64,000 nt of DNA from a virus, in IMG/VR virus record IMGVR_UViG_3300035698_035359, positions 1-64,000 of that record. One strand, written 5' to 3'. Below are positions 38,355-39,803 of the stretch, in pieces. Position 1 is the first letter of the stretch. Each line of letters begins with the position of its first letter. The translations under genes and the position numbers were made by a program. The notes beneath the pieces are model-generated. The model saw only the letters and a list, made by a program, of their open reading frames with translations, did no database searches and had not been told where the DNA came from.

Positions 38355-38379
38355 AATAATTCCATTGAGAATTATTCCA
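38355..38379 (+). ncRNA. Acceptor-stem-like hairpin ending TCCA (#1)
   Basis: AATAATTC-CATTGA-GAATTATT-CCA directly before tRNA-Met. Confidence 0.7.
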
Positions 38380-38456
38380 TGCAGAGACAAGCCTTGGTAG
38401 GCTAGAAAGGTTCATACCCTTTATTATTGTGGATTCGATTTCCACCTCTGCTACCA
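38380..38456 (+). tRNA. tRNA-Met(CAT), U1:U72 mismatch (initiator-like)
   Basis: Stem GCAGAG/CTCTGC, AAAGG-TTCATAC-CCTTT, GTGGA-TTCGATT-TCCAC, ACCA. Confidence 0.8.
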
Positions 38457-38521
38457 AATTATCCTGCTACTTGAGGTTAATAATATCCAGTGAGATGTAA
38501 CCAAGCAGAGTAGCACTTATA

Positions 38522-38560
38522 AGGGGTAGGTGTTAAGGTTCTTAACTATCTACCTCTCCA
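38522..38560 (+). ncRNA. Minihelix-like hairpin ending TCCA (#2)
   Basis: GGGGTAGGT-GTTAAG-GTT-CTTAAC-T-ATCTACCTC-TCCA directly before tRNA-Pro. Confidence 0.7.
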
Positions 38561-38638
38561 CTGGGTATAGGGGAGTTTGGCCACCCCGTCTCGTTTGGGG
38601 CGAGAAGAACGCAGGTTCGAATCCTGCTACCTAGACCA
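38561..38638 (+). tRNA. tRNA-Pro(TGG)
   Basis: CTGGGTA/TACCTAG, TCTCG-TTTGGGG-CGAGA, GGTTCGAATCC, ACCA. Confidence 0.95.
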
Positions 38639-38712
38639 AGGGATATAGTATAATGGTAGTGCATCGGTTTTACATACCGAGAGCGAAAGTTCGATTCTTT
38701 CTATTCCAACCA
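38639..38712 (+). tRNA. tRNA-Val(TAC), A1:A72 mismatch
   Basis: TCGGT-TTTACAT-ACCGA, GAAAG-TTCGATT-CTTTC, ACCA. Confidence 0.9.
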
Positions 38713-38788
38713 TCTGGAGTAGCTCACTGGTAGAGCGTTGGGTTGAAGACCCGAGACAGAGGTGGTTCGATTCCACTCTCTAGAACCA
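38713..38788 (+). tRNA. tRNA-Phe(GAA)
   Basis: TCTGGAG/CTCTAGA, TTGGG-TTGAAGA-CCCGA, ACCA. Confidence 0.92.
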
Positions 38789-38862
38789 AGTCGTGTGGTG
38801 TAATGGTAACACAAGCGACTGTTAATCGCTTGATACAGGTTCGAATCCTGTCGTGACTGCCA
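38789..38862 (+). tRNA. tRNA-Asn(GTT)
   Basis: AGTCGTG/CGTGACT, AGCGA-CTGTTAA-TCGCT, GCCA. Confidence 0.93.
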
Positions 38863-38968
38863 CAGTTGATAGTTTAAAAGGTAGTTTACTATACTAGTCG
38901 ATGTAACTACTGCTAAAATCCTTTCTATCTGAAAGGGGATTTAGGTGGAAGTCCTAATCAACTGACCA
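38863..38968 (+). ncRNA. 106-nt tRNA-like RNA with a hairpin inserted in the D-loop and an ATC pseudo-anticodon
   Basis: CAGTTGA/TCAACTG-ACCA, insert GGTAGTT...AACTACT, CCTTT-CTATCTG-AAAGG, TTAGG-TGGAAGT-CCTAA. Confidence 0.75.
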
Positions 38969-38976
38969 AATATTAT

Positions 38977-38998
38977 AGAAAGTTTTTACTTTCTTCCA
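38977..38998 (+). ncRNA. 7-bp microhelix ending TCCA (#3)
   Basis: AGAAAGT-TTTT-ACTTTCT-T-CCA directly before tRNA-Gly. Confidence 0.75.
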
Positions 38999-39075
38999 GC
39001 GTCTATGGTGTTAACGGACAAGCATGATAGATTTCCAATCTATTGGTTTCGGTTCGAATCCGAATAGACGCTCCA
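38999..39075 (+). tRNA. tRNA-Gly(TCC)
   Basis: GCGTCTA/TAGACGC, ATAGA-TTTCCAA-TCTAT, TCCA. Confidence 0.95.
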
Positions 39076-39159
39076 GGGAAGGTAGTTTAGTCCTATTAAG
39101 CCATGGTAACTTGTAGGATAAGATGATTCAAAAGTGGGTGTAAATTCTCACCCTTCTCT
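39076..39159 (+). ncRNA. tRNA-like RNA lacking an anticodon arm, with a D-region hairpin and no encoded CCA
   Basis: GGGAAGG/CCTTCTC, TAGTTTA, GTCCTA..TAAG-loop-CTTG.TAGGAT, GTGGG-TGTAAATT-CTCAC. Confidence 0.6.
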
Positions 39160-39167
39160 AAAATTAT

Positions 39168-39190
39168 AGAAGATATAATATCTTCTTCCA
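39168..39190 (+). ncRNA. Microhelix ending TCCA (#4)
   Basis: AGAAGAT-ATAAT-ATCTTCT-T-CCA directly before tRNA-Cys. Confidence 0.75.
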
Positions 39191-39265
39191 GGCTATGTAG
39201 CCAAATGGCTAAGGCAATGAGTTGCAACCTCATTAATGGAGGTTCGATTCCTTCCGTAGTCTCCA
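39191..39265 (+). tRNA. tRNA-Cys(GCA)
   Basis: GGCTATG/CGTAGTC, ATGAG-TTGCAAC-CTCAT, TCCA. Confidence 0.93.
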
Positions 39266-39340
39266 GGGACCATAGTGTCAATGGTAGCATTTCTCCCCTG
39301 CAAGGAGAAGGTTAGGGTTCAAATCCCTATGGCTCCACCA
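39266..39340 (+). tRNA. tRNA-Ala(TGC)
   Basis: G3:U70, TCTCC-CCTGCAA-GGAGA (C33), ACCA. Confidence 0.88.
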
Positions 39341-39415
39341 GCCCGTTTAGTATAACGATAGTATAATTCCCTTGTAAGGAATAGGTGGTGGTTTAATTCC
39401 GACCAATGGGCTCCA
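39341..39415 (+). tRNA. tRNA-Thr(TGT)
   Basis: GCCCGTT/AATGGGC, ATTCC-CTTGTAA-GGAAT, irregular T arm, TCCA. Confidence 0.8.
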
Positions 39416-39420
39416 AAAAT

Positions 39421-39597
39421 ATGACATTAAAATATACAATTTATAAAATAACTAATTTAATAAATAATAGGTTTTATATTGGGATGCATAGAACAAAAAA
39501 TATTAATGATTATTATTTAGGTTCTGGTAAATTAATCATACAAGCGATAGAAAAATATGGTGAAGAAAATATTGTAAATTTATTGATAACAAGTTAG
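39421..39597 (+). pseudogene. Truncated GIY-YIG (Seg-like) homing endonuclease
   Basis: TIYKITNLINNRFYIGMH...YLGSG....AIEKYG.EN then a premature stop. Confidence 0.85.
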
Positions 39598-39624
39598 AAA
39601 CTATTAAAAAATAAAAACAGTTTA

Positions 39625-39654
39625 AATATACAAGAGATTAATTTGTATATTCCA
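39625..39654 (+). ncRNA. Hairpin ending TCCA (#5)
   Basis: AATATACAAG-AGATTAA-TTTGTATATT-CCA directly before tRNA-Asp. Confidence 0.72.
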
Positions 39655-39729
39655 GGTAGATTAGTGTAATGAAAAGCACGTGGCTCTGTCGAAGCCAAAG
39701 CGAGAGATTGATACTCTCATTTACCGCCA
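39655..39729 (+). tRNA. tRNA-Asp(GTC)
   Basis: GGTAGAT/ATTTACC, TGGCT-CTGTCGA-AGCCA, atypical T-loop ATTGATA, GCCA. Confidence 0.82.
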
Positions 39730-39803
39730 GAGGATTTGGTGTAATGGAAACATTTGTAGCTCCAAACTACAAGACATGGGTTCGATTCCTATAATCTTTG
39801 CCA
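39730..39803 (+). tRNA. tRNA-Trp(CCA)
   Basis: GAGGATT/AATCTTT, TGTAG-CTCCAAA-CTACA, GCCA. Confidence 0.9.

What the first reader, a model, noticed from the sequence alone, without database searches (positions are those of the whole stretch)
38355..39803. CCA-punctuated tRNA array with dummy acceptor-stem hairpins: candidate RNase P-independent 5'-maturation system
Seen: all 13 tRNA or tRNA-like units begin at the base directly after a CCA. Eight (Val, Phe, Asn, ATC-like, armless, Ala, Thr, Trp) use the encoded CCA of the previous tRNA with no spacer. The other five (Met, Pro, Gly, Cys, Asp) have no abutting tRNA, and each is preceded by a short hairpin ending in T-CCA: 38355-38379, 38522-38560, 38977-38998, 39168-39190 and 39625-39654. 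The stems differ in sequence but all pair, so structure plus UCCA appears to be under selection. One hairpin sits between the promoter and the first tRNA, and another follows a homing-endonuclease insertion. Established: RNase P normally makes tRNA 5' ends and needs no upstream CCA, whereas some RNase Z enzymes (e.g. Thermotoga maritima) cut just 3' of CCA and leave a 5'-phosphate on the downstream piece. Inference: the phage makes mature 5' ends with a 3'-end enzyme that cuts after CCA, using the hairpins as mimics of an upstream tRNA. Alternatively, the released microhelices could act as decoys or aminoacylation substrates (U73). I do not know of a description of this arrangement.
Basis: partly seen in the sequence, partly recalled or inferred. 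Interest (0 to 1): 0.92.

Follow-up and report, generated by a model that had tools for sequence, protein, structure and literature searches.

The report
CCA-punctuated phage tRNA array with acceptor-stem hairpins
An uncultured salt-lake phage packs its tRNA genes so that every one starts right after a CCA, supplied either by the previous tRNA or by a small hairpin that copies a tRNA's acceptor end; the pattern is real and under selection, but nothing shows that it bypasses the usual tRNA-trimming enzyme RNase P.

Summary
All 13 units at 38380-39803 start directly after CCA. The five tRNAs with no abutting tRNA (Met, Pro, Gly, Cys, Asp) are each preceded by a 7-10 bp stem + T + CCA in exact register. 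Only 0.22% of random positions have CCA plus a stem of at least 6 bp.

The rule holds in the nearest relatives: 12 of 15 first or post-gap tRNAs in the window, L011, L001 and L089, with unrelated stem sequences, against 1 of 18 in more distant relatives. It is absent from unrelated phage clusters (0 of 21). Two paralogous hairpins differ by two compensatory pair changes. Two hairpins are better conserved than the tRNAs beside them.

The RNase P-independent reading is not supported. Relatives tolerate AT spacers of 1-18 nt, L001's Met sits 3 nt after its CCA, no RNase Z-like gene was found in the ORFs scanned, and one RNase P cut at each tRNA +1 already yields both ends.

My best reading is RNase P punctuation with selected acceptor-stem mimics, released as CCA-ended microhelices. 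Their function is unproven. The host is unknown and no RNA data exist.

This scan had flagged NCCA mini-hairpins in other phage tRNA arrays (unchecked notes). My literature searches found no published description.

The parts
38305..38334 (+). sigma-70-like promoter (TTTACA, 18 nt, TATAAT) of the array transcript
   Evidence: 11 of 12 matches. This is a consensus match only.
38355..38379 (+). hairpin 1: 7-8 bp stem (ATAATTC/GAATTAT) + T + CCA, abutting Met
   Evidence: -3.8 kcal/mol, z -3.5
38380..38456 (+). tRNA-Met-like (CAU) with a U1:U72 mismatch; encodes CCA
   Evidence: relaxed ARAGORN only; the mismatch was read. Homologues in L001 and L089 start the same way.
38457..38521 (+). non-tRNA spacer that folds into a long hairpin, between Met and hairpin 2
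   Evidence: fold of 38457-38560, -32.4 kcal/mol, z -3.0; no Rfam family
38522..38560 (+). hairpin 2: GGGGTAG.../...CTACCTC with an inner hairpin, + T + CCA, abutting Pro; resembles the GC-rich late-region hairpins
   Evidence: (-17.4 kcal/mol, z -4.2)
38561..38862 (+). tRNA-Pro, Val, Phe and Asn, abutted with zero spacer; each encodes CCA
38863..38968 (+). 106-nt tRNA-like unit with acceptor stem + A + CCA, abutting Asn
   Evidence: not called by ARAGORN or Rfam
38977..38998 (+). hairpin 3: AGAAAGT/ACTTTCT + T + CCA, abutting Gly; it follows an 8-nt AT spacer
   Evidence: -5.5 kcal/mol, z -5.4. Stems + TCCA are 18 of 18 identical in L011. Paralogue of hairpin 4.
38999..39075 (+). tRNA-Gly (UCC)
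39076..39159 (+). second tRNA-like unit ('armless') with no encoded CCA, abutting Gly
   Evidence: (weak relaxed call at 39075-39160)
39168..39190 (+). hairpin 4: AGAAGAT/ATCTTCT + T + CCA, abutting Cys
   Evidence: -6.0 kcal/mol, z -4.5; two compensatory pair changes against hairpin 3
39191..39414 (+). tRNA-Cys, Ala and Thr, abutted with zero spacer
39421..39597 (+). 58-aa N-terminal fragment of a SegB-like GIY-YIG homing endonuclease
   Evidence: 73-77% DNA identity to T-even segB/segD genes over about 135-146 nt; TIGR01453, E 9e-4, below its cut-off
39625..39654 (+). hairpin 5: ATATACA/TGTATAT + T + CCA, abutting Asp
   Evidence: -4.9 kcal/mol, z -3.5. 29 of 31 columns are identical in L011, where it overlaps the stop codon of a 90-aa ORF.
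39655..39803 (+). tRNA-Asp and tRNA-Trp, abutted
40178..40210 (+). canonical intrinsic terminator (13-bp stem + T-run) that ends the array transcript
50210..50238 (+). GC-rich intergenic hairpin followed at once by CCA, after gene 49211-50164; possibly a related element
   Evidence: -18 kcal/mol. The syntenic hairpin + CCA is present in L124 and L095.
53307..53331 (+). GC-rich intergenic hairpin (GCAA loop) followed at once by CCA, after gene 52853-53299
   Evidence: -14.2 kcal/mol
56122..56149 (+). GC-rich intergenic hairpin + T + CCA, after gene 55222-56103
   Evidence: -17.9 kcal/mol

Best explanation
The array is one transcript of about 1.9 kb, running from the promoter at 38305-38334 to the terminator at 40178-40210. 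Every tRNA 5' end in it lies directly after a helix-N-CCA. Most likely the host's RNase P cuts at +1 of each tRNA. Because there is no spacer, that single cut also leaves a finished CCA-3'OH on whatever lies upstream, so one enzyme matures both ends at each junction.

Where no tRNA lies upstream, the phage keeps a minimal stand-in: a hairpin of about 7 bp + U + CCA that copies a tRNA acceptor end. These hairpins probably arose from tRNA genes by internal deletion and are now held by selection. They give each tRNA the same junction context. After cleavage they are released, or left on the upstream RNA, as tRNA-like ends (stem-NCCA) of the kind that 3' exonucleases trim poorly.

Shown here: the layout, its non-chance character, its recurrence in the nearest relatives, and the compensatory change. 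Inferred: RNase P as the nuclease, the origin from tRNAs, and the benefit (a uniform junction or a stable end).
For: - Exact register in 13 of 13 units, and 5 of 5 hairpins.
- A zero spacer is strongly preferred in the family: 45 of 66 consecutive tRNA pairs closer than 20 nt. In the wider set of loci that includes some duplicates, 100 of 107 tRNAs encode CCA.
- Hairpin + CCA leaders occur in 12 of 15 first or post-gap tRNAs of the window, L011, L001 and L089, against 0.22% of random positions.
- The Met leaders of the window, L089 and L001 are three unrelated 7-bp stems.
- Hairpins 3 and 4 are paralogous and differ by two compensatory pair changes.
- Against L011, the hairpin 3 stems + TCCA are 18 of 18 identical and hairpin 5 is 29 of 31, while the tRNAs are 51-71% identical.
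- In L001, two non-tRNA units of about 112 nt start at +1 after a CCA and end in a 10-bp terminal stem + N + CCA. That is the shape of RNase P hairpin substrates.
- From the passages of PMC10731613 that I read: RNase P separates polycistronic tRNAs, cleaves hairpin-type non-tRNA substrates (phage C4 RNA, the hisCD hairpin), and is strongly inhibited when the leader pairs with the 3' RCCA.
- Hints of a tRNA origin: the hairpin abutting Met in L089 has a loop that looks like a D-loop, and one L011 stem equals the 5' acceptor strand of the window's Trp.
Against: - RNase P needs no upstream helix or CCA, so this model does not by itself explain why the exact N-CCA and the zero spacing are kept before tRNAs that have no tRNA upstream. 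The proposed benefit is inferred, not shown.
- No RNA ends were seen.
- The AT-rich hairpins are only marginally stable (-3.8 to -6 kcal/mol at 37 C).
- A hairpin at the 3' end of the upstream piece would block exonucleolytic trimming of the tRNA-like unit at 38863-38968, unless something also cuts 5' of the hairpin.
- The high conservation of hairpins 3 and 5 against L011 could reflect recent recombination of those segments rather than selection.
- The comparative set is small: three or four independent arrays. The laid contigs gave no variants in the hairpins.
- More distant relatives do without such leaders (1 of 18).
Confidence: 0.45

Rival explanations
1. The hairpins are functional in trans. 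The downstream tRNA serves as an RNase P-guided 3'-end signal that releases microhelices of 22-39 nt with an exact CCA-3'OH. These act on proteins that read tRNA acceptor ends. They could, for example, be decoys for host defence toxins that modify or cut tRNA 3' ends, or ligands of the phage's own Thg1-like, RNase T-like or RtcB enzymes.
For: The exact N-CCA end and the zero spacing are what a product needing a precise tRNA-like 3' end would require. There is selection on the stems. The phage encodes a tRNA repair set: a Thg1-like protein (PF04446, E 1e-21), an RNase_T-family exonuclease (E 5e-13) and RtcB (E 2e-110). That suggests pressure from attacks on tRNA. L001 carries longer CCA-ended non-tRNA units.
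Against: No partner is known and there is no expression data. The stems are weak and differ in sequence, so a sequence-specific partner is unlikely. Relatives outside the nearest clade lack the hairpins. The one literature search on acceptor-stem decoys found one paper, on AbiE in Serratia, of which I saw only the search listing.
Confidence: 0.18
2. One reading: an endonuclease that recognises acceptor-like stem-N-CCA and cuts just after the A makes the tRNA 5' ends without RNase P, with the hairpins standing in for an upstream tRNA. The enzyme could be a Thermotoga-type tRNase Z, an RNase BN-like enzyme, or an unknown one.
For: It explains directly why every tRNA 5' end in the window (13 of 13), and 14 of 15 first or post-gap tRNAs in the nearest clade, is preceded by CCA, 12 of them with a local stem. 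T. maritima tRNase Z cuts after an encoded CCA (passages of PMC3161902).
Against: Family relatives have spacers of 1-18 nt without CCA at -1, and first tRNAs without hairpins. The L001 Met is offset by 3 nt from its CCA, and one L011 hairpin has 2 nt between the stem and CCA. CCA generally inhibits tRNase Z, and the enzyme grips the D and T loops, which a 7-bp hairpin lacks. No such enzyme was found in the phage ORFs scanned. RNase P is near-universal and would cut these junctions anyway (own knowledge). HARP's 3' activity cuts at least 13 nt downstream of the acceptor stem, not after CCA (passages of PMC12217051).
Confidence: 0.12
3. The hairpins are non-functional scars. tRNA genes in a zero-spacer array lost their interior by deletion, which left the 7-bp acceptor stem, the discriminator, CCA and the abutment by simple inheritance.
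For: It explains the 7 bp, N73, CCA and the register with no extra assumption. In L089 the hairpin abutting Met has a loop that looks like a D-loop. One L011 stem equals the 5' acceptor strand of the window's Trp. The arrays hold several degenerate tRNA-like units.
Against: All five stems are perfect. Two compensatory changes separate paralogues 3 and 4. Hairpins 3 and 5 are better conserved than the tRNAs beside them. All five have T before CCA, whereas only 3 of the 12 units in the window that encode CCA have T73 (read). None of the five stems matches an acceptor stem of the window's tRNAs (read). Hairpins also occur right after a promoter (window) and right after a terminator (L089).
Confidence: 0.12
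4. The constraint acts on DNA. Units bounded by CCA are cassettes that are shuffled by recombination or by SegB-type homing at tRNA genes, and the hairpins are cassette ends or recombination sites.
For: A SegB-like endonuclease fragment lies in the array. SegB promotes inheritance of the T4 tRNA region and cuts in tRNA genes (passage of PMC8421152). Unit content differs between relatives while the junctions persist. Conservation is mosaic, with hairpins at 94-100% and tRNAs at 51-71%.
Against: There is no conserved DNA motif beyond CCA. The pairing includes G:T pairs and all units lie on one strand, both of which point to RNA. The endonuclease is only a 58-aa fragment.
Confidence: 0.05

Closest known systems
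Polycistronic bacterial and phage tRNA operons separated by RNase P (E. coli valVW, B. subtilis arrays, the T4 tRNA cluster with segB)
   Same: Co-transcribed tRNAs with encoded CCA. RNase P cuts separate the units (passages of PMC10731613). A SegB-like endonuclease gene lies inside the cluster, as in T-even phages.
   Different: In the clusters I checked (RB18, L042, L050, L084), 0 of 21 tRNAs follow CCA, and all spacers between neighbouring tRNAs are 1-7 nt except one zero-gap pair, Gln|Leu in RB18, which has no CCA. Here the modal spacer is 0 (45 of 66), and non-abutted tRNAs get an acceptor-stem hairpin ending in CCA.
Hairpin-type RNase P substrates: synthetic acceptor/T-stem minihelices (recalled), and the natural phage P1/P7 C4 RNA, 4.5S/SRP RNA and hisCD hairpin
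   Same: A stem with a single-stranded 3' NCCA-like tail. C4 RNA shows that a phage can encode a non-tRNA hairpin processed by RNase P (passages of PMC10731613).
   Different: Those are cut at their own 5' side, and their stems are about 12 bp or longer. Here the conserved feature is the 3' CCA abutting the next tRNA's +1. The stems are about 7 bp, and the base before CCA is U rather than a purine.
Thermotoga maritima-type tRNase Z, which cleaves after an encoded CCA
   Same: It would cut exactly at the CCA|+1 junctions seen here (passages of PMC3161902).
   Different: It acts on full pre-tRNAs through D/T-loop contacts. No such enzyme was found in the phage, and the host is unknown.
tRNA punctuation and tRNA-like processing signals (mitochondrial punctuation, plant mitochondrial t-elements, MALAT1 mascRNA; recalled)
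   Same: tRNA-processing enzymes define the ends of neighbouring non-tRNA RNAs.
   Different: In those systems a tRNA-like fold marks the ends of an mRNA or long non-coding RNA. Here real tRNAs would define the 3' end of minimal acceptor-stem hairpins, in a bacteriophage. The Rfam mascRNA hit at 39274-39336 (28.4 bits, below its 42.5 cut-off) lies within tRNA-Ala.
Theta (HDV-like) ribozymes flanking phage tRNAs
   Same: A small cis-acting structured RNA placed directly beside phage tRNA genes, proposed to reduce dependence on host RNases (passages of PMC10879173).
   Different: Theta ribozymes lie on the 3' side and self-cleave, and only 4.5% of their tRNAs encode CCA. Here the elements lie on the 5' side, are simple hairpins, and nearly all the tRNAs encode CCA. 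No ribozyme family matched.

Membership tests
RNase P-processed polycistronic tRNA array | Several co-oriented tRNA genes in one transcription unit | tested here: met
   10 Rfam and 8 ARAGORN tRNAs on the + strand; one promoter-like site and one terminator flank them.
RNase P-processed polycistronic tRNA array | 5' ends generated by RNase P cleavage at +1 | not testable with these tools
   No RNA run is listed and the host is unknown.
RNase P hairpin/minihelix substrates (C4 RNA type) | A helix with a single-stranded 3' RCCA tail | tested here: inconclusive
   Stem + N + CCA is present in 5 of 5, but N is U rather than a purine, the stems are 7-10 bp, and in 3 of 5 the U may be paired.
RNase P hairpin/minihelix substrates (C4 RNA type) | Cleavage at the 5' base of the helix | not testable with these tools
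   No RNA ends are available.
Substrates of a CCA-tolerant (T. maritima-type) tRNase Z | Acceptor stem-N-CCA followed by a trailer, with the cut after the A | tested here: inconclusive
   The sequence layout fits. Exceptions are the L001 Met offset of 3 nt and the L011 stem + AT + CCA.
Substrates of a CCA-tolerant (T. maritima-type) tRNase Z | A D/T-loop elbow bound by the enzyme's flexible arm | tested here: not met
   The hairpins have no T or D arm. The requirement comes from passages of PMC3161902.
Substrates of a CCA-tolerant (T. maritima-type) tRNase Z | Such an enzyme present in the phage or the host | tested here: inconclusive
   None among the 30 phage ORFs scanned against Pfam. Small ORFs and the region 64-90 kb were not scanned, and the host is unknown.
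T4-type tRNA cluster | A segB-type homing endonuclease inside the cluster | tested here: met
   A 58-aa fragment with 73-77% DNA identity to T-even segB/segD; the RB18 layout is.
T4-type tRNA cluster | Short non-zero spacers, with no CCA at -1 of the next tRNA | tested here: not met
   In RB18, 0 of 10 tRNAs are preceded by CCA; in the window, 13 of 13 are.
Self-cleaving ribozymes beside tRNAs (theta/HDV-like) | A match to a ribozyme fold | tested here: not met
   The Rfam scan at E up to 5 gave no credible ribozyme hit in 38300-39850. The one hit, drz-agam-2-2, scored 11.6 bits on the minus strand.

The most novel reading that the evidence does not exclude
Acceptor-stem microhelices encoded in the genome are a real class of phage small RNA. 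The phage uses each downstream tRNA as an RNase P-guided signal to give them an exact CCA-3'OH. They then act in trans on machinery that reads tRNA 3' ends, for example as decoys for host anti-phage toxins that attack tRNA ends, or as partners of the phage's Thg1-like, RNase T-like or RtcB repair set. The same stem-CCA design may also cap late mRNAs (50210, 53307, 56122).
Probability: 0.18. Interest if true: 0.85.

Novelty: new variant of a known kind. Interest (0 to 1): 0.6.

Why it matters
If the hairpins are processing or stability elements, they show a compact way to mature a whole tRNA operon with one cut per junction. They would also show that a bare acceptor stem + CCA, known so far mainly as a laboratory model substrate, is kept by natural selection.

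If they act in trans, they would be a new kind of phage small RNA in the conflict over tRNAs between phages and hosts.

In every case the element is small, defined and easy to test with mutants in vitro. It could also serve as a design rule for synthetic tRNA or guide-RNA arrays.

Tried and rejected
- **Close relatives in named phages:** blastn with the array matched only the endonuclease fragment, and tblastn with the terminase found nothing among 50,697 records.
- **Host:** the genome-contig scan gave two MAG contigs with inconsistent labels (Planctomycetales, Woesearchaeota) and no tRNAs. The host remains unknown, so rnpB and RNase Z could not be checked.
- **RNA evidence:** no RNA holder is listed.
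- **Natural variation:** contigs of four salt-lake runs laid on 38200-56300 were mostly identical low-depth pieces. No listed base difference fell inside a hairpin. Listed indels lay only in the endonuclease fragment region. Further differences were not shown by the tool.
- **More arrays:** the Cys|Ala junction pattern gave 66 loci, of which only L078 (the same contig as L001) is real. The Ala|Thr junction pattern gave 4 chance loci without tRNAs. The protein at 49211-50164 used alone found no relative. The protein at 41841-43754 found two relatives at 35% identity without tRNAs. Records G001-G003 behind L005-L007 hold no tRNA, and L001 and L003 are not held.
- **Known families for the odd units:** the Rfam scan at E up to 5 gave none. 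PHROGs gave none for 7 of 8 proteins.
no Pfam hit, no PDB hit, and only a below-cutoff NCBIfam hit to a RING-family protein. No structure was predicted.
- **HARP as a dual 5'/3' enzyme:** its 3' cut lies at least 13 nt downstream of the acceptor stem, so it is not relevant here.
- **attP or integrase target site:** rejected by reasoning, because such sites carry only the 3' part of a tRNA and not both acceptor strands.
- **Literature:** searches found no description of CCA-ended leader hairpins in phage tRNA arrays. Supplements were not opened.

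
Full report
**What is there.**
- The window is the first 64 kb of a 90,259-base IMG/VR virus record. It has 31% G+C, and its DNA is held by salt-lake metagenome runs.
- The + strand between 38380 and 39803 carries a dense tRNA array. ARAGORN tRNAs and Rfam. Relaxed ARAGORN adds a Met-like CAU tRNA at 38380-38456.
- Two further units are tRNA-like but no default tool calls them: 38863-38968 and 39076-~39159.
- A promoter-like site (38305-38334, 11 of 12 matches) and the only canonical terminator nearby (40178-40210) bracket the array.
- A 58-aa fragment of a SegB-like GIY-YIG endonuclease lies at 39421-39597.

- All 13 units start directly after CCA.
- Eight units use the CCA of the unit before them.
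The stems are 7-10 bp and are followed by T and CCA. They fold at -3.8 to -17.4 kcal/mol, with z-scores of -3.5 to -5.4 against shuffles.
- In three of the hairpins the T can pair with an upstream A, so "U73" is clearly unpaired only in hairpins 3 and 4.
- In the window, 58 of 1498 CCA sites carry a stem of at least 7 bp + N + CCA, including the five themselves.
- Over the window and 12 relatives, 0.22% of positions have CCA at -3..-1 plus a stem of at least 6 bp.

**Relatives.**
- No named phage is related. Through the terminase I reached metagenomic relatives.
- Arrays occur in L011 (terminase 78% identical), L001 (57%), L089 (58%), L100, L108, L111, L125, L124 and L093.
- Across 13 non-redundant sources (the window and 12 loci), 45 of 66 consecutive tRNA pairs closer than 20 nt have no spacer. 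The other 21 have spacers of 1-18 nt, mostly AT-rich.
- Among first or post-gap tRNAs, CCA at -3..-1 plus a local stem is found in 12 of 15 in the window, L011, L001 and L089, and 14 of those 15 have the CCA. In the remaining relatives the figure is 1 of 18.
- The misses in the near clade are as follows. The L001 Met has a 7-bp stem, then TA, CCA and three A before the tRNA. The L001 Val follows a 112-nt unit whose long-range 10-bp terminal stem ends in T + CCA. The L089 Trp has CCA but no clear stem.
- In L089 I added one uncalled Thr-like tRNA at 804 by eye. It follows an 8-bp stem + T + CCA placed just after a terminator.
- Unrelated phage clusters show 0 of 21 tRNAs preceded by CCA.

**Selection.**
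- The Met leaders of the window, L089 and L001 are 7-bp stems with unrelated sequences.
- Hairpins 3 and 4 lie in paralogous modules (tRNA-like unit, AT spacer, hairpin). Their stems differ at two pairs, both compensated: A:T to G:C and G:C to A:T.
- Against L011, the hairpin 3 stems + TCCA are 18 of 18 identical while its loop and spacer changed. Hairpin 5 is 29 of 31 identical. The tRNAs are 51-71% identical.
- The Cys leader of L011 is a shorter unit with a different 5' partner that still ends in stem + T + CCA. However, that is a 6-bp stem with a 30-nt loop, which chance could give.
- Recent recombination could also explain the conserved segments.

**Mechanism.**
- An RNase P cut at +1 of a tRNA leaves a 3'-OH on the upstream piece. 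With zero spacer, that piece ends in a finished CCA. This explains the strong peak at gap 0 without any new enzyme.
Relatives have spacers and plain leaders. The L001 Met is out of register. No RNase Z-like, PIN or CCA-adding family was found in 30 scanned ORFs. tRNase Z is generally inhibited by CCA and holds the D and T loops (passages of PMC3161902).
- RNase P, however, needs no upstream helix-CCA, so the reason the hairpins are kept is still open.
- The options I rank are: a uniform junction and an exonuclease-resistant tRNA-like end on the upstream RNA; a function in trans for the released microhelices; and simple scars of deleted tRNAs. The last fits the geometry and two hints of a tRNA origin, but it does not fit the compensatory changes.
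- From the passages of PMC10731613 that I read: leader pairing with the 3' RCCA is a strong anti-determinant, leader structure affects the rate, and the effect of closely adjacent tRNAs has not been systematically examined.

**Context.** The phage encodes a Thg1-like protein, an RNase_T-family exonuclease and RtcB.

**A possibly related element.**
- Three GC-rich intergenic hairpins in the late region (50210, 53307, 56122) are followed at once by (N)CCA, and they resemble hairpin 2.
- The first lies after gene 49211-50164. In L124 and L095 the homologous gene (48% identity) is followed by a hairpin of different sequence and again by CCA.
- A GC-rich hairpin follows this gene in most relatives. 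L006 and L007 show none in the first 80 nt. Counting the window, CCA follows the hairpin in only 3 of 12 distinct cases; the others have a T-run or other bases.
- Family-wide, 3 of 67 strong hairpins are followed by (N)CCA and 19 by a T-run.
- The link to the array hairpins is therefore only suggestive.

**Prior knowledge.**
- My searches found no description of such leaders.
- The nearest published ideas are RNase P hairpin substrates such as phage C4 RNA, theta ribozymes on the 3' side of phage tRNAs, and SegB with tRNA arrays.
- Unchecked notes of this scan report NCCA mini-hairpins in other phage tRNA arrays, so the class may be wider.

**Verdict.** The pattern is real and selected, and it is restricted to the nearest relatives. 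I rate it a new variant of polycistronic tRNA processing. RNase P independence is not supported, and the function of the hairpins is unproven.

Noticed in passing
window 50210-50238, 53307-53331, 56122-56149; L124 12117-12142; L095 6477-6511: GC-rich intergenic hairpins in the late region start with (A)GGGG and are followed at once by (N)CCA-A. The one after gene 49211-50164 is syntenic in L124 and L095, with different stems and the same CCA. Other relatives have a T-run or other bases there (3 of 12 with CCA, counting the window).
   Followed up: partly
window 38380-38456 and 38639-38712; L001 517-592; L089 289-363: The Met-like tRNA has a U1:U72 mismatch that is conserved in L001 and L089, and the window's tRNA-Val has A1:A72 (both read by eye). 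The phage encodes a Thg1-like 3'-5' polymerase (12576-13262), which could repair or edit such 5' ends.
   Followed up: no
window 39421-39597: A 58-aa fragment of a GIY-YIG endonuclease inside the tRNA array shares 73-77% DNA identity over about 135-146 nt with segB/segD genes of T-even phages and others. This is striking for a salt-lake phage with no other DNA similarity to them. In L011 the same place holds an intact, unrelated 90-aa ORF.
   Followed up: partly
window 38863-38998 and 39076-39190: A duplicated module: an aberrant tRNA-like unit (both begin with a 7-nt acceptor strand followed by TAGTTTA), then an 8-nt AT spacer, then a hairpin + TCCA. In L011 the second module is reduced to 54 nt.
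   Followed up: partly
L001 667-779 and 1186-1297: Two non-tRNA units of about 112 nt are abutted on both sides by tRNAs. Each closes with a 10-bp terminal stem + N + CCA. No Rfam family matched at gathering threshold.
   Followed up: partly
L089 1-60 and 399-457: A repeated element of about 60 nt with an inner GGAG/CTCC hairpin ends in ...CTACC-CCA-A. Two copies flank the Met region of the array.
   Followed up: no
L011 803-945: A 66-nt insert between Asp and Trp ends in a 7-bp stem + AT + CCA. The 5' strand of that stem equals the window's Trp acceptor strand. Rfam matches the following Trp only at model positions 6-65, so its acceptor stem is not matched.
   Followed up: partly
Its only hits are a below-cutoff match to the NCBIfam RING-domain family NF041916, a strong match to phrog_33734 and a weak match to phrog_5698, both PHROG families of unknown function.
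   Followed up: partly
window 10098-18236 (-): A cluster of RNA-repair-type genes: a radical SAM protein, a Thg1-like protein, an ATP-dependent ligase, an RNase_T-family exonuclease and RtcB.
   Followed up: partly
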